In this document: positions 346 through 5,979 of the stretch, in pieces
Numbering within the stretch: the first letter of the stretch is position 1
How the letters are laid out: every line of letters begins with the position of its first letter
Notes under the pieces: generated by a model
What the model saw: only the letters and a program-made list of their open reading frames with translations
Told to the model about the DNA's origin: nothing
The model's database searches: none
Translations under genes and position numbers: made by a program
IMG/VR virus record: IMGVR_UViG_2698536485_000005
Span: 1 to 6,511 of that record
Source of the DNA: a virus
Taxonomy: Duplodnaviria > Heunggongvirae > Uroviricota > Caudoviricetes
Strand: one strand, 5' to 3'
Length of the DNA stretch: 6,511 nt

Positions 346-795
346 TTACTTAACCAATGATGCTGCATATTCGATAAGGTAAAGTTTTGGGGCCAGCCAA
401 ATTTTTAACCAAGTCATATTGGTTACTACACCAATAATAAAAATCCCCCACAGAGTCAAAACTCCAACCAATGGCATGATAAGAAGGTTAATATCTCCTT
501 TGCTATCCCAAACCATTGTCGGCCTGTATTTGGGATTTCCCATCTCCCATGAGTATCCTTCATCACCGATTTTACCTGTCTCAACTCTTTGGCACTGCTT
601 CTTCATAAACCAGAAAACCAGTGGGATTGTTAGAATGGCTATTAATGTTTTAATCAGACTGTCAACCATATTCCATAGCAGCAACTGATGAACAACATCA
701 GGAATCTGTGCCTGGCTAAATGAAACAGCCGCGTCTATTCCATTACTGGCTTTTTGCAGTAGTTCTACGAGAATCTTGTTTGCTTGTTCTTCCAT
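346..795 (-). CDS. Small integral membrane protein (149 aa, two predicted transmembrane helices), function unknown; candidate prophage exclusion/abortive-infection effector
   Basis: ATG start with AAGGTG 4 nt upstream on the minus strand. About 46 soluble N-terminal residues, hydrophobic helix LIKTLIAILTIPLVFWFM, about 38-residue loop, second hydrophobic helix INLLIMPLVGVLTLWGIFIIGVV, short C-terminal tail. A+T-rich relative to the replication genes. No family recognised from memory. Confidence 0.7.
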   Translation of the reverse strand: MEEQANKILVELLQKASNGIDAAVSFSQAQIPDVVHQLLLWNMVDSLIKTLIAILTIPLVFWFMKKQCQRVETGKIGDEGYSWEMGNPKYRPTMVWDSKGDINLLIMPLVGVLTLWGIFIIGVVTNMTWLKIWLAPKLYLIEYAASLVK

Positions 796-873
796 ATATC
801 ACCTTAAATAGTGGATTGCGGTAGTAAAGATTGTGCCTGTCTTTTAACCACATCAGGCTCGGTGGTTCTCGTG

Positions 874-925
874 TACCCCTACAGCGAGAAATCGGATAAA
901 CTCTATTCACCCCTACAGAGAGAAT
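874..925. repeat. Two near-identical 16-17 bp direct repeats (ACCCCTACAG[C/A]GAGAA) spaced 34 bp apart in the divergent intergenic region
   Basis: Copy 1 at 875..890 (ACCCCTACAGCGAGAA) and copy 2 at 909..924 (ACCCCTACAGAGAGAA); they lie between the divergent starts at 795 (minus) and 941 (plus), the second copy just upstream of the GGAG ribosome-binding site of the 941 gene. Confidence 0.5.
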
Positions 926-940
926 GATGGAGATTCACCG

Positions 941-1480
941 ATGAGTAACTGGTGGCAGGAACTATTACGTTTCTTCCTGCGTGGTCTTACGCTACAACAG
1001 TTAATTCATATGCTTATTATTTTAATTGCCTTGATAATAATCACCCCAGCATCAATTAAAGAGTGGGTAGATATAAGGAACCCCGAAATACTTCCAGATC
1101 ACTGGATGTATTACGCAATGCTTTTGTGTATCAGTTATGTTCTGAACAGGGTGATGGAGTTTATATTTCTGGCATCTTCAGACAGATATAAAAAATATCT
1201 CAGTAAGAGAGATGAGGCTAAAGTAATTGTGGAGACTGAGCACCTGTTCAATTCTCTGAGTATTCAGGAAAAAGAGGTTTTAGCATTTGCTGTTATGGCA
1301 AATAACAAAATTGTACTTAAGCACGGCGATCCGGTCGCTTTATCTCTTATGAGAAAAGGCCTTCTCCATCGCTCAGGTGTGACTTACAGCGCGTCAGGTA
1401 AAGAGAAATTTGTTATACCTGACGTCTGGTTCCATGAGTGTTATATGCGCTTTGCTGGTAAAGCTGATGAGCTAATTTAG
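941..1480 (+). CDS. Membrane-anchored protein (179 aa; two N-terminal TM helices plus about 100-aa soluble C-terminal domain); possible SieB-like superinfection exclusion protein
   Basis: ATG with GGAG 8 nt upstream. Hydrophobic segments LIHMLIILIALIIITPA and WMYYAMLLCISYVLNRVMEFIFLA. Lies next to the immunity region and convergent with the predicted pL, the arrangement I recall for sieB in lambda/P22/Rac. Size and topology fit SieB, but sequence homology was not verified. Confidence 0.6.
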   Translation: MSNWWQELLRFFLRGLTLQQLIHMLIILIALIIITPASIKEWVDIRNPEILPDHWMYYAMLLCISYVLNRVMEFIFLASSDRYKKYLSKRDEAKVIVETEHLFNSLSIQEKEVLAFAVMANNKIVLKHGDPVALSLMRKGLLHRSGVTYSASGKEKFVIPDVWFHECYMRFAGKADELI

Positions 1481-1594
1481 TTCCTCGACGGCGGGGGATC
1501 GTCATCTCGCTGTCAGTTGTTTTGATTTCCTGTTGCCTGCCGCGTAAAGAGCTTGTGTCACGAGATCGCTAACCCCGTATATAAAAACACTTCA

Positions 1595-1610
1595 ATAACT
1601 ATCAAGTTAT
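1595..1610. repeat. Perfect inverted repeat ATAACT-atca-AGTTAT in the pL leader region
   Basis: Exact 6-bp arms with a 4-bp spacer; a second perfect inverted repeat with the same half-site in the opposite arrangement (AGTTAT-aaa-ATAACT) lies at 1743..1757 beside OL. Confidence 0.4.
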
Positions 1611-1706
1611 GGAAATGTTCTTTTGTAGTGAGCAGCATTGCCGTTCATCCTGAACCCGCCGCGCTCCCGACGCATGGTTTAATGTCGCGCCGTTCGACAT
1701 GGCTTA

Positions 1707-1735
1707 ACTATATCCAAAGCTATTATTGATGTAAA
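1707..1735 (-). promoter_or_regulatory. pL-like early leftward promoter
   Basis: On the minus strand: -35 TTTACA (plus 1730..1735), 17-bp spacer, -10 TATAGT (plus 1707..1712); predicted start near 1700. Both hexamers overlap operator-like sites. Confidence 0.6.
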
Positions 1736-1833: not shown

Positions 1834-1860
1834 AAAAAACCCGCAAAAAGCGGGTTTGTT
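1834..1860 (-). terminator. Intrinsic terminator immediately downstream of cI (minus strand), possibly weakly bidirectional
   Basis: Stem CCCGC (1840..1844) / GCGGG (1850..1854) with an AAAAA loop, flanked by an A-run (1834..1839) that gives a T-run after the stem on the minus strand; it sits about 20 nt past the cI stop (1877..1875). The plus-strand side has only an interrupted T-run. Confidence 0.65.
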
Positions 1861-1874
1861 GTGGTGTGATGAGG

Positions 1875-2606
1875 TTAGTAGTCAACTACAGACCACCAGA
1901 AGATTCTTCCGATGATCTCGATATCGCTTAGATTCTTTTCTTCTTGTGGGTATTCCAGTGAGTTAAAGCTTCTAATGCTTACCTTGTCAGGCCCTGATCG
2001 AAAGAGAATCTTAATGCGTTTCCAACCGTTCTCGTTAATGGCGTAAATCTTTCCGTCAACTATTTTCTTATCGTTGGTGTTAACAGCAACTGTTGTTCCA
2101 TCAGGAATGTTTGGCTCCATGCTGTTGCCACGAGCCGGAAAACAAACAACCCCGCTTCCATCACTGTTCGCACCAACTCTGCGAAGGGTTGATTTGGAGA
2201 AGCGCAACATAAAGCCGTTGTGATCTTCATCAATCACCCGACCATCCCCGCATGCAAACTCAATATCTTTAAGGTAAGGAATTTCAACTTCATCACCTCT
2301 TAAAGGCGTTCCTCCATCCCATGGGTCCAAATATCCCCACGTGCTTTCATGAGGAATAGAAGATTTTGGATTATAAGGTTCAACTCCCTCATCACGCATT
2401 GGCCCAGTTCCATCGGAAAGCCATTCCGTACGAACTCCAAGCACTTTTGATATTTCAAAAAGTTTGCGCGTATTGCGTGTTTTTCCAGACGTAAGTTTCC
2501 AGACGCTTGGCTGAGACATGCCAACAGCATTGCCAAGTGAAGCCTGAGTAAACCCAGCCTGATCCATCGCGTATGTAAGCCTTTGAGAAAAAGTATCTAG
2601 TTTCAT
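1875..2606 (-). CDS. cI: CI-type prophage repressor: N-terminal HTH DNA-binding domain plus C-terminal LexA-like S24 autopeptidase domain
   Basis: 243 aa. N-terminal HTH region (...GFTQASLGNAVGMSQPSVWKLTSGK...), C-terminal GNSMEP serine motif (Ser162) and downstream GWKRIK lysine, with a linker F-A-C-G about 42 residues before the Ser. Divergent from cro across an operator region; apparently leaderless start, as for lambda pRM transcripts. Confidence 0.93.
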   Translation of the reverse strand: MKLDTFSQRLTYAMDQAGFTQASLGNAVGMSQPSVWKLTSGKTRNTRKLFEISKVLGVRTEWLSDGTGPMRDEGVEPYNPKSSIPHESTWGYLDPWDGGTPLRGDEVEIPYLKDIEFACGDGRVIDEDHNGFMLRFSKSTLRRVGANSDGSGVVCFPARGNSMEPNIPDGTTVAVNTNDKKIVDGKIYAINENGWKRIKILFRSGPDKVSIRSFNSLEYPQEEKNLSDIEIIGRIFWWSVVDY

Positions 2607-3064: not shown

Positions 3065-3361
3065 ATGACACAAGCAAGTTACAGCAAGCCAACACAGCGA
3101 GAAATTGATCGCGCTGAAACTGATTTACTCATCAACCTGTCAACGCTTACCCAGCGCGGTCTGGCAAAGATGATTGGCTGTCATGAATCGAAGATAAGCA
3201 GAACGGACTGGAGATTTATTGCTTCGGTCTTGTGTGCTTTCGGAATGGCATCAGATATCAGTCCGATTAGCAGGGCTTTTAAGTATGCGCTTGATGGACT
3301 CACCAATAAAAAACGCCCGGCGGCAACCGAGCGTTCTGAACAAATACAAATGGAATTTTAA
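3065..3361 (+). CDS. cII: CII-family transcriptional activator (98 aa)
   Basis: GGAGA ribosome-binding site 9 nt upstream. The C-terminal about 20 residues (LTNKKRPAATERSEQIQMEF) match the lambda CII C-terminus as I remember it; the N-terminal two-thirds differ from lambda CII. Position directly after cro is canonical. Confidence 0.85.
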   Translation: MTQASYSKPTQREIDRAETDLLINLSTLTQRGLAKMIGCHESKISRTDWRFIASVLCAFGMASDISPISRAFKYALDGLTNKKRPAATERSEQIQMEF

Positions 3362-3658: not shown

Positions 3659-4606
3659 ATGAGCAATACAGCAAAAATCTACGATTTCAGCGCCGCACAC
3701 GAGCGCAGGAGCAACAGGATGGAGAACCAGAAAACTGGTTACATTCCGTTGTACCGGAGCATTCTGAAACAGTCATGGGCGAAAGATGTTTATCTTCGCA
3801 CCCTGTGGGAAAACCTTCTCCTGAATGCCGCCAGAAAGCCATACAAAGCGAATTTCAAAGGTCATGAATGGCATCTGCAACCCGGTCAACTGGTTGTGAC
3901 AGCAGCTGATTTAGGTCTTCAGTTATGCGACAGGCATGGCAAGCCGGCAAGCCGTGATCAGGTTGAGCGGATGCTTCAGGTTTTTGTGAAAGAGGGGATG
4001 ATCTCCATTGATGGAGAGAAGCAAAAAGGTCGTGTGATCACCATCACAAATTACCATGAATACGCTCAAAAAATGGACAATTCACCCGCACATGATGCCG
4101 CACAAACAACCGCACATGATGCCGCACATGATGAAGACAGTAATGGCGCGGCTTTCAGCGTACATGCCGCACATGAAAGCGCACATGAAGCCGCACAAAC
4201 AACCGCACATCATGAACAAGAAGGTATTAACAAGAATATAAATAATACCCCCCTACCCCCCAATGGGGGCGGCGATGGGCAGGTTAAACCTGAACGTCGC
4301 AAGGCAGAACGCATCGACTACGAATCCTTCCTGAACGCCTACAACACCGAAGTCGGTGACAGACTGCCACACGCTGTTGCGGTCAACGAGAAACGCAAAC
4401 GCCGCCTGAAGAAAATCATCCCGCAACTGAAAACGCCAAACGTGGACGGTTTCAGAGCGTATGTCAGGGCGTTTGTGCATCAGGCCAAGCCGTTTTACTT
4501 CGGAGACAACGACACGGGCTGGACGGCCGATTTTGATTACCTGCTGAGAGAAGATTCGTTAACGGGAGTTCGGGAAGGGAAGTTTGCAGACAGGGGGATT
4601 GCATGA
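3659..4606 (+). CDS. O-like replication initiator protein (315 aa) with the internal origin
   Basis: N-terminus [10 protein letters not shown]... resembles the lambda O N-terminus (MTNTAKI...). The middle of the gene carries tandem 12-bp DNA repeats encoding an Ala/His/Asp-rich linker, followed by an AT-rich tract; the stop overlaps the helicase start (ATGA). Confidence 0.88.
4086..4250. repeat. Replication origin: eight 12-bp iteron-like direct repeats in two blocks of four, followed by an A+T-rich unwinding region
   Basis: Block 1 at 4086..4133 (CCGCACATGATG, CCGCACAAACAA, CCGCACATGATG, CCGCACATGATG); block 2 at 4167..4214 (CCGCACATGAAA, GCGCACATGAAG, CCGCACAAACAA, CCGCACATCATG); AT-rich stretch 4215..4250; then a CCCCC...GGGGG element at 4251..4270. 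Same iteron-plus-AT-tract-inside-O layout as ori-lambda. Confidence 0.7.
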
Positions 4607-5979
4607 GACAGGATATCGAAGCGAGCGTTATCGGTGGCCTGCTGATTGGTGGATTAACACCAACCGCCAGCGACGTTCTGGCAACACTGGAGCCGGAAGC
4701 GTTTTCAATTCCGCTCTACCGGAAAGCCTTCGAGGTTATCCGCAAGCAGGCGAGAAACAGAAACCTAATCGATGCGCTGATGGTTGCCGAGGCGTGCGGA
4801 GAGGAGCATTTCACGTCAATCCTGATGACCAGCAAAAACTGCCCGAGTGCCGCAAACCTGAAGGGATATGCCGGAATGGTCGCGGATAACTATCACCGCC
4901 GTCTGGTGCTGGAAATCATGGATGAAATGCGTGAACCAATTCAGAGCGGAACCATCGACGCATCGAGTCAGGCGATGGATGAACTTGTAAAACGTCTCTC
5001 AGCCATCAGAAAGCCCCGTGACGAGGTTAAACCTGTACGGTTAGGGGAAATCATTACTGACTACACTGACACGCTTGACAGGCGTCTGAGGAACGGAGAA
5101 GAGTCAGATACCCTGAAGACCGGAATCGAAGAACTTGATGCCATCACCGGAGGGATGAACGCGGAAGACCTGGTGATAATCGCTGCTCGTCCTGGTATGG
5201 GGAAAACCGAGCTGGCGCTGAAGATTGCCGAAGGCGTGGCAAGTCGTGTTATTCCTGGTTCTGACGTCCGGCGCGGAGTATTGATTTTCTCGATGGAAAT
5301 GAGCGCATTGCAGATTGCAGAGCGAAGCATTGCCAACGCCGGGAGGATGTCGGTTAGCGTACTGCGAAATCCTGCATCAATGGATGACGAGGGCTGGGCA
5401 CGTGTTGCTAACGGCATGAGTCAGCTTGCAGATTTGGATGTATGGGTAGTCGATGCCTCGCGGTTATCGGTCGAAGAAATACGCTCAATCGCAGAACGGC
5501 ACAAACAGGAAAATCCAAACCTCTCACTCATCATGGCGGATTATCTTGGCCTGATTGAGAAGCCGAAAGCAGACCGCAACGACCTCGCAATTGCTCACAT
5601 CTCAGGAAGCCTGAAGGCGATGGCGAAAGACCTGAAAACACCGGTTATCTCCCTAAGTCAGCTTTCGCGCGATGTTGAGAAGCGACCAAACAAACGCCCG
5701 ACAAACGCAGATTTGCGTGATTCAGGAAGCATTGAGCAGGACGCAGACTCAATCATCATGCTCTATCGGGAAGCGGTATATGACGAGAACAGTAGCGCCG
5801 CGCCATTTGCTGAAATCATCGTGACGAAAAACCGTTTTGGCTCACTTGGTACGGTTTACCAGCGGTTCTGCAACGGACACTTTGTTGCATGTGACCAGGA
5901 TGAAGCCAGACAGATTTGCACAGCATCAAATGCGCCTGCTGCGCGTGGCAGACGATATGCACAAGGGGCGGACGTATGA
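4603..5979 (+). CDS. DnaB-family replicative DNA helicase (458 aa; P22 gene-12-type phage helicase)
   Basis: AGGGGGA ribosome-binding site 6 nt upstream. DnaB N-terminal domain motifs (IGGLL..., [15 protein letters not shown]), Walker [13 protein letters not shown], and C-terminal [41 protein letters not shown] typical of DnaB helicases. Confidence 0.95.

What the first reader, a model, noticed from the sequence alone, without database searches (positions are those of the whole stretch)
874..925. 34-bp-spaced direct repeats in the divergent promoter region
ACCCCTACAG[C/A]GAGAA occurs twice (875..890, 909..924) between the divergent starts at 795 and 941, and no strong sigma-70 promoter is evident for either gene. 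The repeats could be binding sites for an activator or repressor (phage- or host-encoded) that controls the accessory pair, or part of an unusual promoter.
Basis: seen in the sequence. Interest (0 to 1): 0.45.

Follow-up and report, generated by a model that had tools for sequence, protein, structure and literature searches.

The report
Repeat inside sieB promoter and sas RNA
The two repeats are real and conserved, but they lie inside the already characterised promoter and start site of the phage superinfection-exclusion gene sieB and inside its antisense RNA (sas), so they most likely act in RNA, not as binding sites for a regulator.

Summary
ACCCCTACAG[C/A]GAGAA occurs at 875-890 and 909-924 and nowhere else in the window (0.06 matches expected by chance). 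ORF 941-1480 is SieB. The intergenic region is about 91% identical to phage P22 and 96% to lambda. The P22 record annotates the sieB promoter and RNA start there. Copy 1 covers the -35/spacer, the -10 (TAAACT, 897-902) lies between the copies, and copy 2 begins at the transcription start (909). Both copies also lie inside the homolog of P22's sas antisense RNA (818-945, minus strand). The leftward gene belongs to the early-left (PL) operon, so the region is not a divergent promoter.

In about 130 related loci, copy 1 always sits in a hairpin whose arms covary (33 arm pairs) and which is more stable on the minus strand. That hairpin adjoins a nearly invariant 31-nt core. The two copies change together between lineages (ACCCCTACAG, TCCCCAACAAC, TTCCACAGTC). 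Their single-base differences would keep G·U pairing between the mRNA 5' end and the sas hairpin.

Best reading (inferred): the repeat keeps the first 10 nt of sieB mRNA complementary to the top of a sas stem-loop. I found no evidence for a protein-binding site.

The parts
875..890 (+). Repeat copy 1 (ACCCCTACAGCGAGAA). It forms the loop, inner stem and 3' arm of hairpin HP1, and it overlaps the -35/spacer of the sieB promoter.
   Evidence: mapped onto the P22 promoter annotation
909..924 (+). Repeat copy 2 (ACCCCTACAGAGAGAA). Its first A corresponds to the annotated P22 sieB RNA start, so copy 2 is +1..+16 of the sieB mRNA.
   Evidence: In 21 distinct E. coli-family loci only +1..+10 is conserved while both flanks vary.
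866..890 (-). Hairpin HP1: arms TTCTCG 866-871 / CGAGAA 885-890, inner TGTA 872-875 / TACA 880-883, CCCC 876-879 (GGGG tetraloop on the minus strand).
   Evidence: Inverted repeat I2. 33 distinct Watson-Crick arm pairs at this position; mean best stem 5.8 bp against 3.6 in shuffles. Minus strand more stable in 46 of 50 versions.
835..865 (-). Nearly invariant 31-nt core GCCTGTCTTTTAACCACATCAGGCTCGGTGG. It may fold as an H-type pseudoknot: S2 GCCTG 835-839 / CAGGC 854-858, and S1 ACCAC 847-851 / GTGGT 862-866 (the last base of S1 lies one position beyond the core).
   Evidence: The Rac variant GCCCGG/CCGGGC is compensatory. The three variable positions fall in the predicted loops.
872..902 (+). 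sieB promoter by homology to the P22 annotation: TGTACC 872-877 as a weak -35, and TAAACT 897-902 as the -10, 7 nt before the start at 909.
   Evidence: The consensus scan finds no canonical promoter.
818..945 (-). Homolog of the P22 sas antisense RNA. It is complementary to the sieB mRNA from +1 through the start codon, and it contains both repeat copies, HP1 and the core.
   Evidence: P22 sas sequence in PMC13397905 Table 2, aligned through. No Rfam family matches.
941..1480 (+). sieB (superinfection exclusion protein B). SD GGAG is at 929-932. The in-frame internal ATG at 1010 (M24) corresponds to the P22 esc start.
   Evidence: Pfam PF14163, E = 2.9e-20; PHROG 1301, E = 6e-94; P22 esc annotation; ORF list
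1487..1514 (+). Terminator-like hairpin plus T run after sieB.
346..795 (-). Next gene of the early-left operon (phrog_3054, unknown function, predicted membrane protein). Its SD (AAGGTG on the minus strand) lies at 801-806, about 30 nt after the core.
1707..1735 (-). Candidate PL promoter (TTTACA-17-TATAGT) flanked by operator-like palindromes. It is the likely source of the leftward transcript that would give rise to sas.

Best explanation
Shown by homology (confidence about 0.9). The repeats lie in the control region of sieB, as characterised in phage P22. sieB is transcribed rightward in the prophage from a weak promoter whose -10 (TAAACT, 897-902) sits between the copies. Copy 1 covers the -35/spacer. 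Copy 2 is the first 16 nt of the mRNA, which starts at 909. During lytic growth the leftward early (PL) transcript crosses this region and yields the sas antisense RNA (818-945, minus strand). In P22, sas blocks translation of SieB while allowing the internal product Esc, so the phage escapes its own exclusion system.

Inferred (confidence about 0.45). The repeat exists for RNA pairing. On the minus strand, the complement of copy 1 forms the upper part of a conserved stem-loop, HP1'. It has a 6-bp lower stem, a bulge, a weak UGUA/UACA upper stem and a GGGG loop, and it sits next to a conserved structured core at the 3' end of sas. Because copy 2 repeats copy 1, the first 10 nt of the sieB mRNA (ACCCCUACAG) are complementary to this stem-loop as well as to the directly antisense segment. 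I propose that the hairpin top is a recognition or nucleation site for the 5' end of the mRNA, as with the IS10 RNA-OUT loop and the 5' end of RNA-IN. The full 36-bp duplex over the Shine-Dalgarno sequence and AUG would form afterwards.

In the simpler single-unit relatives (type B) the promoter overlaps the hairpin, so the mRNA 5' end is antisense to the loop automatically. In the sieB-type (type A) the promoter sits one unit of about 34 bp further on, and the repeat preserves that relationship.
For: Identity of the locus:
- SieB Pfam and PHROG hits.
- The 181-bp region 780-960 is 90.6% identical to P22 and 95.6% to lambda.
- P22 record BK000583 annotates the promoter and the RNA start, which falls on the first A of copy 2.
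- The P22 sas sequence from RNA-seq spans both copies.
- Reviews describe the sas/SieB/Esc switch.

RNA-level reading:
- Copy 1 lies in a hairpin with 33 distinct compensating arm pairs.
- The hairpin is more stable on the minus strand in 46 of 50 versions, by 5-8 kcal/mol in the Klebsiella-type and Rac-type versions because of G·U pairs.
- The two copies change together in three lineages: ACCCCTACAG, TCCCCAACAAC and TTCCACAGTCAAA. Spacing is 32-35 bp.
- In 21 E. coli-family variants the conserved block of copy 2 is exactly +1..+10, while the spacer and the rest of the 5' UTR are unalignable between lambda, HK620, P22 and Rac.
- Every internal difference between the copies is C>T or A>G from copy 1 to copy 2. 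That keeps mRNA:sas pairing as G·U. There are about 5 independent events, and none in the opposite direction inside the loop.
- The duplex between the mRNA 5' end and the HP1' top is -19.3 kcal/mol.
- The cargo ATG is 65-72 nt from the core in type B and 100-107 nt in type A, a difference of one unit.
- Type B carries an extended -10 (TGnTATnnT) that survives a 3-nt insertion.
Against: - No transcript data exist for this phage. The start at 909 and the existence of sas rest on homology to P22.
- I could not read the primary papers. That sas is processed from the PL transcript is from memory.
- In the predicted fold most of the copy 1 complement is paired, leaving only a 4-nt GGGG loop. That is small for loop-initiated pairing.
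- The directly antisense segment already gives a perfect 36-bp duplex, so a second site is not obviously needed.
- Folding z-scores are unremarkable (-0.35 to -1.6).
- The G·U-direction test rests on about 5 events (p about 0.03).
- The three motif families may be three separate duplications of different ages. In L033 the similarity extends about 27 nt, so part of the identity between copies may reflect recency rather than selection.
- The transcription start of type B loci is predicted, not measured.
Confidence: 0.45

Rival explanations
1. Duplication remnant with two separate constraints. A unit of about 34 bp (hairpin loop, 3' arm and ribosome-binding region) was duplicated in tandem. Copy 1 is kept because it forms the upper stem and GGGG loop of a structural hairpin in the leftward RNA. 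Copy 2 is kept for its role at the transcription start or mRNA 5' end. The two copies never interact.
For: The cargo ATG offset differs by exactly one unit between type B and type A. In L033 the similarity between units extends about 27 nt with an SD-like AAGGA in both, so duplications do occur and differ in age. The complement of copy 1 is largely base-paired inside HP1' on the minus strand, which alone could explain its conservation. Each type A motif resembles the loop of a different type B family.
Against: Across families both roles tolerate very different sequences, yet within each locus the copies match. The conserved block of copy 2 has the same 10-nt boundaries as the repeated part of the loop, while everything around it diverges. 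Differences between the copies are biased toward G·U-compatible directions, which independent constraints do not predict. Initial transcribed sequences are not normally conserved for promoter function (general knowledge).
Confidence: 0.25
2. The two copies are binding sites for one protein, either a DNA-binding activator or repressor acting at -34..-19 and +1..+16 of the sieB promoter, or an RNA-binding protein recognising the motif.
For: The direct repeats are conserved at a roughly constant spacing of 32-35 bp, straddling a promoter with a poor -35 that might need help. A site at +1..+16 could repress.
Against: There are no further copies in the window. In lambda the only other exact copy is inside capsid gene C. 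The same motif accompanies different repressors, N proteins and cargo genes (lambda, P22, HK620, Rac, this window), so no co-varying phage regulator is apparent. Both the ACCCCTACAG and TCCCCAACAAC families occur in Klebsiella phages (L005, L006), which argues against host-specific factors. The spacing varies by 3 bp and is about 3.2 helical turns. Neither hairpin covariation nor minus-strand G·U pairs are expected for a DNA site.
Confidence: 0.12
3. Recombination linker. The conserved block, ending with copy 2, is a junction sequence kept because homologous exchange between lambdoid phages happens there. The repeat has no regulatory role.
For: Homology between lambda and P22 or the window ends exactly after ACCCCTACAG of copy 2. 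The module plus sieB behaves as a cassette that is absent from E. coli PEC122 between identical flanks. The same module precedes dozens of unrelated genes.
Against: This does not explain why the sequence is repeated, why the copies co-vary, why copy 1 lies in a covarying hairpin, or why the core is invariant.
Confidence: 0.08

Closest known systems
Phage P22 sieB-esc-sas system (Ranade & Poteete 1993, Genes Dev 7:1498; J Bacteriol 175:4712; annotated in GenBank BK000583)
   Same: Homologous locus. The SieB protein, the internal Esc start, the promoter, the RNA start site, both repeat copies and the whole sas region align. The 181-bp region 780-960 is 90.6% identical (177 bp aligned), and the stretch 812-918 is essentially identical.
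   Different: SieB here is 179 aa against 192 aa. The 5' UTR between +13 and the ATG differs. The gene on the left is different, and no full-length N gene lies between sieB and the repressor. Expression and function are untested here. As far as I could check, the role of the repeat itself has not been described.
Phage lambda sieB upstream region (lambda 34,346-34,480)
   Same: 95.6% identical to window 784-918, including the core, HP1, the -10 and both ACCCCTACAG copies at 34437 and 34471.
   Different: Only the 10-nt part is repeated in lambda. The sequence after copy 2 and the N-terminus of SieB are unrelated.
IS10 RNA-OUT / RNA-IN antisense pairing (Kittle et al. 1989, from memory)
   Same: A stable antisense stem-loop whose top is complementary to the extreme 5' end of the target mRNA. 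A lower stable stem with a bulge and a weak upper stem is typical of antisense recognition hairpins.
   Different: In IS10 the loop is directly antisense to the mRNA 5' end. Here the hairpin lies 34 nt away from the true antisense position, and complementarity is created by a direct repeat. The predicted loop is only 4 nt. Nothing has been tested.
Direct-repeat operators or iterons for DNA-binding regulators
   Same: Two similar sequences in direct orientation around a promoter.
   Different: There is no cognate protein, no additional sites and no co-variation with any nearby regulator. Covariation and strand asymmetry point to RNA.

Membership tests
P22-type sieB-esc-sas locus | SieB-family protein encoded next to the element | tested here: met
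   PF14163 E = 2.9e-20, above the gathering score; phrog_1301 E = 6e-94
P22-type sieB-esc-sas locus | In-frame internal start giving the Esc inhibitor | tested here: met
   ATG at 1010 (M24 in ...QQLIHMLIIL...) aligns with P22 esc codon 25. Sequence level only.
P22-type sieB-esc-sas locus | sieB promoter and RNA start as mapped in P22 | tested here: met
   The P22 promoter (L003 1589-1619) and RNA start (1626) map to window 872-902 and 909 with identical sequence. The start itself is not measurable here.
P22-type sieB-esc-sas locus | Leftward antisense RNA (sas) covering the sieB 5' UTR and start codon | not testable with these tools
   The sequence homologous to the 127-nt P22 sas is present at 818-945. 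Expression cannot be tested.
P22-type sieB-esc-sas locus | Location in the early-left operon, opposite in orientation, near the repressor | tested here: met
   cI-like gene at 1875-2606 (minus strand), candidate PL at 1707-1735, leftward genes on the left. The same arrangement holds in 93 of 96 related loci.
Loop / 5'-end antisense recognition (IS10 RNA-OUT type) | Stable stem-loop in the antisense RNA supported by covariation | tested here: met
   33 arm pairs; 5.8 bp against 3.6 bp in shuffles; minus strand favoured 46/50
Loop / 5'-end antisense recognition (IS10 RNA-OUT type) | Top of that stem-loop complementary to the first nucleotides of the target mRNA | tested here: met
   mRNA +1..+10 ACCCCUACAG against HP1' CUGUAGGGGU, -19.3 kcal/mol. 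Kept in three motif families.
Loop / 5'-end antisense recognition (IS10 RNA-OUT type) | Recognition nucleotides exposed in a loop of about 5-8 nt | tested here: inconclusive
   The predicted structure leaves only GGGG unpaired, and the UGUA/UACA upper stem is weak.
Loop / 5'-end antisense recognition (IS10 RNA-OUT type) | Pairing starts at the loop and sets the rate of inhibition | not testable with these tools
   Needs binding kinetics and compensatory mutants.
   Only two copies in the window. Lambda has the pair plus one copy in capsid gene C.
   The same motif occurs with unrelated immunity regions and cargo genes. Both motif families occur in Klebsiella phages.
   Needs EMSA or pull-down.
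H-type RNA pseudoknot (31-nt core) | Two stems in crossing topology with compatible loop lengths, supported by covariation | tested here: inconclusive
   S1 ACCAC/GUGGU and S2 GCCUG/CAGGC, with loops of 3, 2 and 7 (A-rich) nt on the minus strand. The variable positions fall in the loops. There is one compensatory variant of S2 (Rac: GCCCGG/CCGGGC) and none for S1.

The most novel reading that the evidence does not exclude
The repeat is the visible trace of a portable promoter-plus-antisense cassette that lambdoid phages place in front of many unrelated prophage-expressed genes embedded backwards in the early-left operon. The cassette has three parts: an invariant 31-nt core (possibly a pseudoknot that caps the 3' end of a processed antisense RNA), a recognition hairpin, and a promoter whose start site must match the hairpin top. 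In the single-unit form the match is automatic. In the sieB-type form the unit is duplicated and the two copies co-evolve, so the mRNA 5' end still pairs with the hairpin. That would make sas the founding member of a widespread, unannotated family of modular phage antisense RNAs that switch off prophage accessory and defence genes during lytic growth.
Probability: 0.35. Interest if true: 0.6.

Novelty: already known. Interest (0 to 1): 0.35.

Why it matters
The locus itself is textbook phage biology. It holds the sieB promoter and the sas antisense RNA that lets P22 escape its own abortive-infection protein, so the finding as stated adds little. Three things may be new, as far as the accessible literature and Rfam show:

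- The same control module (core, hairpin and promoter) precedes dozens of unrelated small genes in Escherichia, Salmonella, Klebsiella, Enterobacter and Shigella phages.
- The hairpin is an RNA structure on the leftward strand.
- The sieB-type repeat co-varies in a way that fits pairing between the mRNA 5' end and the antisense hairpin.

If confirmed, this would give a general rule for how backwards-facing accessory or defence genes in the early-left operon are silenced during lytic growth. It would also give a search handle, the 31-nt core, for finding such genes.

Tried and rejected
- **Rfam:** a search of the whole window at E <= 1 gave nothing at 800-950, only sub-threshold hits on terminator-like hairpins elsewhere.
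- **Consensus promoter and terminator scans:** they find nothing in the intergenic region.
- **MAFFT plus RNAalifold on 57 variants:** the alignment was out of structural register, so the hairpin was missed. I replaced it with a per-sequence stem search and shuffle control.
- **A second hairpin around copy 2 (HP2):** present in HK620 (CTCTTAC/GTAAGAG), lambda (AAACT/AGTTT) and L033 (GACTG/CAGTC), but weak or inconsistent in P22, this window and the Klebsiella-type loci. Not claimed.
- **Folding energies:** sas and sub-regions are not significantly better than shuffles.
- **Accessibility:** it does not distinguish the two copies (0.47 against 0.43).
- **Genome-contig scan:** the structural pattern was too loose, and only one true hit (Enterobacter bugandensis) was recovered.
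- **Pair counting for the pseudoknot:** not possible because the alignment register differs between core variants.
- **Primary papers:** Ranade & Poteete 1993 are not held. Full-text searches for the motif and the core find only the 2026 P22 small-RNA paper.
- **NCBIfam:** no hit for the small leftward ORFs.
- **CsrA or Hfq-type motifs and sigma-dependent pausing:** considered from memory and dropped for lack of a matching consensus.

Full report
**1. Observation.** The window reads ACCCCTACAGCGAGAA at 875-890 and ACCCCTACAGAGAGAA at 909-924. A search on both strands with up to three mismatches finds only these two copies. Shuffles predict 0.06 matches, and none of 200 shuffles reaches two. 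The ORF starts at 795 (minus strand) and 941 (plus strand) are as stated. No consensus sigma-70 promoter is found between them.

**2. Context.** The window is the immunity and early region of a lambdoid prophage.
- 1875-2606 (minus strand): a cI-like repressor.
- 2673-2945: a cro-like gene.
- 3065-3361: a cII-like gene.
- 3659-4606: an O-like replication protein.
- 4603-5979: a DnaB-type helicase.
- 941-1480: SieB (Pfam PF14163, E = 2.9e-20; PHROG 1301, E = 6e-94).
- 346-795 (minus strand): a phage protein of unknown function (phrog_3054).

A PL-like promoter (TTTACA-17-TATAGT) with operator-like palindromes lies at 1735-1707 on the minus strand. A terminator-like hairpin follows sieB at 1487-1514. 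sieB is therefore a backwards-facing gene inside the leftward early operon, as in lambda and P22. The leftward gene at 346-795 is read from PL, not from a divergent promoter at 800-940.

**3. What is annotated at this place in known phages.** The 181-bp region 780-960 matches 139 phage records. It is 90.6% identical to P22 and 95.6% identical to lambda at 34,346-34,480. P22 record BK000583 annotates a sieB promoter and a sieB RNA start site. Aligned to the window:
- The promoter is 872-902, with TGTACC at 872-877 and TAAACT at 897-902.
- The RNA start is 909, the first A of copy 2.
- Copy 1 therefore occupies the -35/spacer, and copy 2 is +1..+16 of the mRNA.

A 2026 RNA-seq study gives the sequence of the P22 sas antisense RNA. 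It is 127 nt long and was detected only in infected cells (PMC13397905). Its reverse complement runs from GCGGTAGTAAAG to the second codon of sieB. In the window this corresponds to 818-945 on the minus strand and includes both copies.

Reviews summarise the mechanism established by Ranade and Poteete in 1993. sieB encodes SieB and an in-frame inhibitor, Esc. sas blocks synthesis of SieB but not of Esc, so P22 escapes its own exclusion. The Esc start is conserved here at the ATG at 1010. I could not read the primary papers. That sas is processed from the PL transcript is from memory.

**4. Comparative anatomy.** The block 812-918 is essentially identical in lambda, P22, Oslo and pCDF6, although the flanks differ. 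Its most conserved part is a 31-nt core at 835-865. Two architectures appear.
- **Type B.** The core is followed by GGTGGTAT, then a hairpin, then directly a Shine-Dalgarno sequence and the ATG of a plus-strand gene. The ATG lies 65-72 nt from the core start.
- **Type A.** This includes every sieB locus. The core is followed by a hairpin (HP1), a -10-like element (TAAACT, TAATCT, TAGACT, TAAAAT or TAACAT), a second copy of the hairpin's loop sequence, then the SD and ATG. The ATG lies 100-107 nt from the core start. The two types differ by one unit of about 34 nt.

In type B, TGGTATNCT is a good extended -10. Variants with a 3-nt insertion recreate it (TGATATGCT, TGTTATGCT). Type A lacks the TAT.

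The genes downstream are very diverse. They include SieB, HK620 hkaP-like proteins, zinc-ribbon proteins and many small proteins in PHROG families of unknown function. In 93 of 96 loci the left flank is coded on the opposite strand. E. coli PEC122 has the same flanks as the window but lacks about 807-1625, so the module plus sieB is a cassette.

**5. The hairpin is real and is an RNA structure of the leftward strand.** In 79 distinct versions the best Watson-Crick stem next to the core averages 5.8 bp, against 3.6 (sd 1.0) in shuffles. There are 33 different arm pairs, for example TTCTCG/CGAGAA, ATCCT/AGGAT, TGCTGG/CCAGCA, TCCTTTTA/TAAAAGGA and TTTCCTT/AAGGAAA. Folding each of 50 distinct hairpins on both strands shows the minus strand more stable in 46, with a mean difference of -2.4 kcal/mol. 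In the Klebsiella-type and Rac-type versions the difference is -5 to -8 kcal/mol. There G·U pairs extend the stem to 9-10 bp capped by GGGG. In the window the minus-strand hairpin is UUCUCG-C-UGUA-GGGG-UACA-CGAGAA.

**6. The two copies change together.** Three motif families occur, always as a pair 32-35 bp apart, with copy 1 in HP1:
- ACCCCTACAG: E. coli, Salmonella, Rac, and Klebsiella phage Kp4866-6.
- TCCCCAACAAC: Klebsiella phage Kp4882-1, Enterobacter bugandensis, and many IMG/VR contigs.
- TTCCACAGTCAAA: L033 and L374.

Within the E. coli family, the spacer and the 5' UTR are unalignable between lambda, HK620, P22 and Rac. Yet +1..+10 of copy 2 stays ACCC(C/T)TACAG, and its flanks vary. 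The conserved block therefore has the same boundaries as the repeated part of the loop.

Differences between the copies inside the motif are all C>T or A>G from copy 1 to copy 2. They occur in Rac/L372, L032, L065/L078/L120, L006 and L120/L089. This is the direction that keeps the sense RNA (copy 2) paired with the antisense hairpin (complement of copy 1) through G·U. The only opposite changes (L034, L078) lie at the loop/arm boundary, where they extend the HP1 stem. That makes about five independent events, all compatible (p about 0.03).

**7. Mechanism proposed.**
- Shown by homology: the repeats belong to the sieB promoter and leader and to sas.
- Inferred: the repeat keeps the first 10 nt of the sieB mRNA complementary to the top of the sas hairpin HP1' (-19.3 kcal/mol). 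This provides a structured recognition site next to the fully antisense segment (36 bp, -71 kcal/mol), comparable to the IS10 RNA-OUT loop and the 5' end of RNA-IN (from memory).

In type B the predicted start lies in the hairpin loop, so the relationship is automatic. In type A the promoter moved one unit downstream and the duplicated motif preserves it.

Weak points:
- The predicted loop is only GGGG.
- A second site is not obviously needed.
- Folding z-scores are unremarkable.
- Type B starts are not measured.
- The three families may be separate duplications of different ages, so some of the identity may be recent (L033 units are similar over about 27 nt).

**8. Rivals.**
- (a) A duplication remnant with separate constraints on each copy.
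- (b) Protein-binding sites. This is disfavoured because there are no further copies in the window. Lambda has only one extra copy, in capsid gene C. No regulator co-varies with the motif, and both motif families occur in Klebsiella phages.
- (c) A recombination junction. Homology between lambda and P22 ends right after copy 2, but this does not explain the repetition.
- (d) Chance. Excluded.

**9. The core.** On the minus strand the core can form an H-type pseudoknot. S1 is ACCAC/GUGGU and S2 is GCCUG/CAGGC, with loops of 3, 2 and 7 nt, the last A-rich. The three positions that vary among the canonical-core versions fall in these loops. The Rac prophage of E. coli K-12 carries GCCCGG/CCGGGC in S2, a compensatory change. 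It is seen with both type A and type B. S1 shows no covariation, so the structure remains tentative. In P22 sas, nucleotide 110 is the last base of the core, and the published size of sas is 105 nt. That is consistent with the core capping the 3' end.

**10. Novelty and verdict.** The element in the window is the known sieB promoter and sas region, with the repeat sequence identical to lambda and P22, so I rate it already known. What is not in Rfam or in the searchable literature is the following:
- the generality of the core-hairpin-promoter cassette;
- its strand-specific structure;
- the co-variation of the repeat.

These are worth an experiment but rest on inference. Interest 0.35.

Noticed in passing
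window 835-865; L011-L130, L131, L372-L390: A 31-nt core (GCCTGTCTTTTNACCACNTCAGGCTCGGTGG) is nearly invariant in at least 120 viral contigs. It always sits in the early-left operon in front of unrelated backwards-facing genes. It can fold as an H-type pseudoknot on the minus strand. Rac of E. coli K-12 has a compensatory S2 variant (GCCCGG/CCGGGC). No Rfam family matches.
   Followed up: partly
L009 (SfV), L012, L019, L046, L094, L375-L381 and others: Single-unit (type B) modules carry a well-conserved extended -10 (TGGTATNCT) that overlaps the 5' arm of the hairpin. Variants with a 3-nt insertion recreate TGnTAT. The transcription start is predicted inside the hairpin loop.
   Followed up: partly
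window ~807-1625 versus L420 (E. coli PEC122): PEC122 has the same left gene and the same immunity region but lacks the module, sieB and its terminator. A different segment of about 290 bp takes their place. The module travels with sieB as a cassette.
   Followed up: partly
window 1602-1700 (minus strand) and 1707-1735: No full-length N gene lies between sieB and the repressor. The 32-aa ORF MSNGATLNHASGARRVQDERQ... is the homolog of a 27-aa CDS that PGAP names 'transcriptional antitermination N peptide'. The candidate PL -10 (TATAGT, 1712-1707) would place +1 on the A of its ATG (1700), so the mRNA may be leaderless. NCBIfam gave no hit.
   Followed up: partly
L089 (IMG/VR 3300011524_000008), 3093-3156 and 4063-4126: One contig carries two modules about 970 bp apart, one type A (Klebsiella-type motif, arms TCTGG/CCAGA) and one type B.
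   Followed up: no
L131 2906-3003 (E. coli K-12 Rac prophage): The annotated small RNA KilS (b4833) lies on the leftward strand about 60 nt beyond the Rac copy of the module. It does not overlap the module. A relation to sas-like processing is unknown.
   Followed up: no
L419 (lambda) 5082-5091: A third exact ACCCCTACAG lies in lambda inside capsid gene C. About 0.1 exact copies are expected by chance. It is probably coincidence.
   Followed up: no
window 905-911 and 933-939: A second short direct repeat, ATTCACC, lies 28 bp apart. One copy is just before the start site and one just before the sieB ATG. It is not conserved in P22 or lambda.
   Followed up: no
window 1837-1857 (minus strand): A strong terminator hairpin (AAACCCGC...GCGGGTTT plus T run) lies after the cI-like gene. 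It accounts for the sub-threshold Rfam hits (Yfr1, Trp_leader, isrK) at 1831-1912.
   Followed up: partly
window ~4050-4240 within ORF 3659-4606: The O-like replication protein contains a repetitive His/Ala-rich stretch ([16 protein letters not shown]...[12 protein letters not shown]). This probably reflects origin iterons inside the gene, as in lambda O.
   Followed up: no
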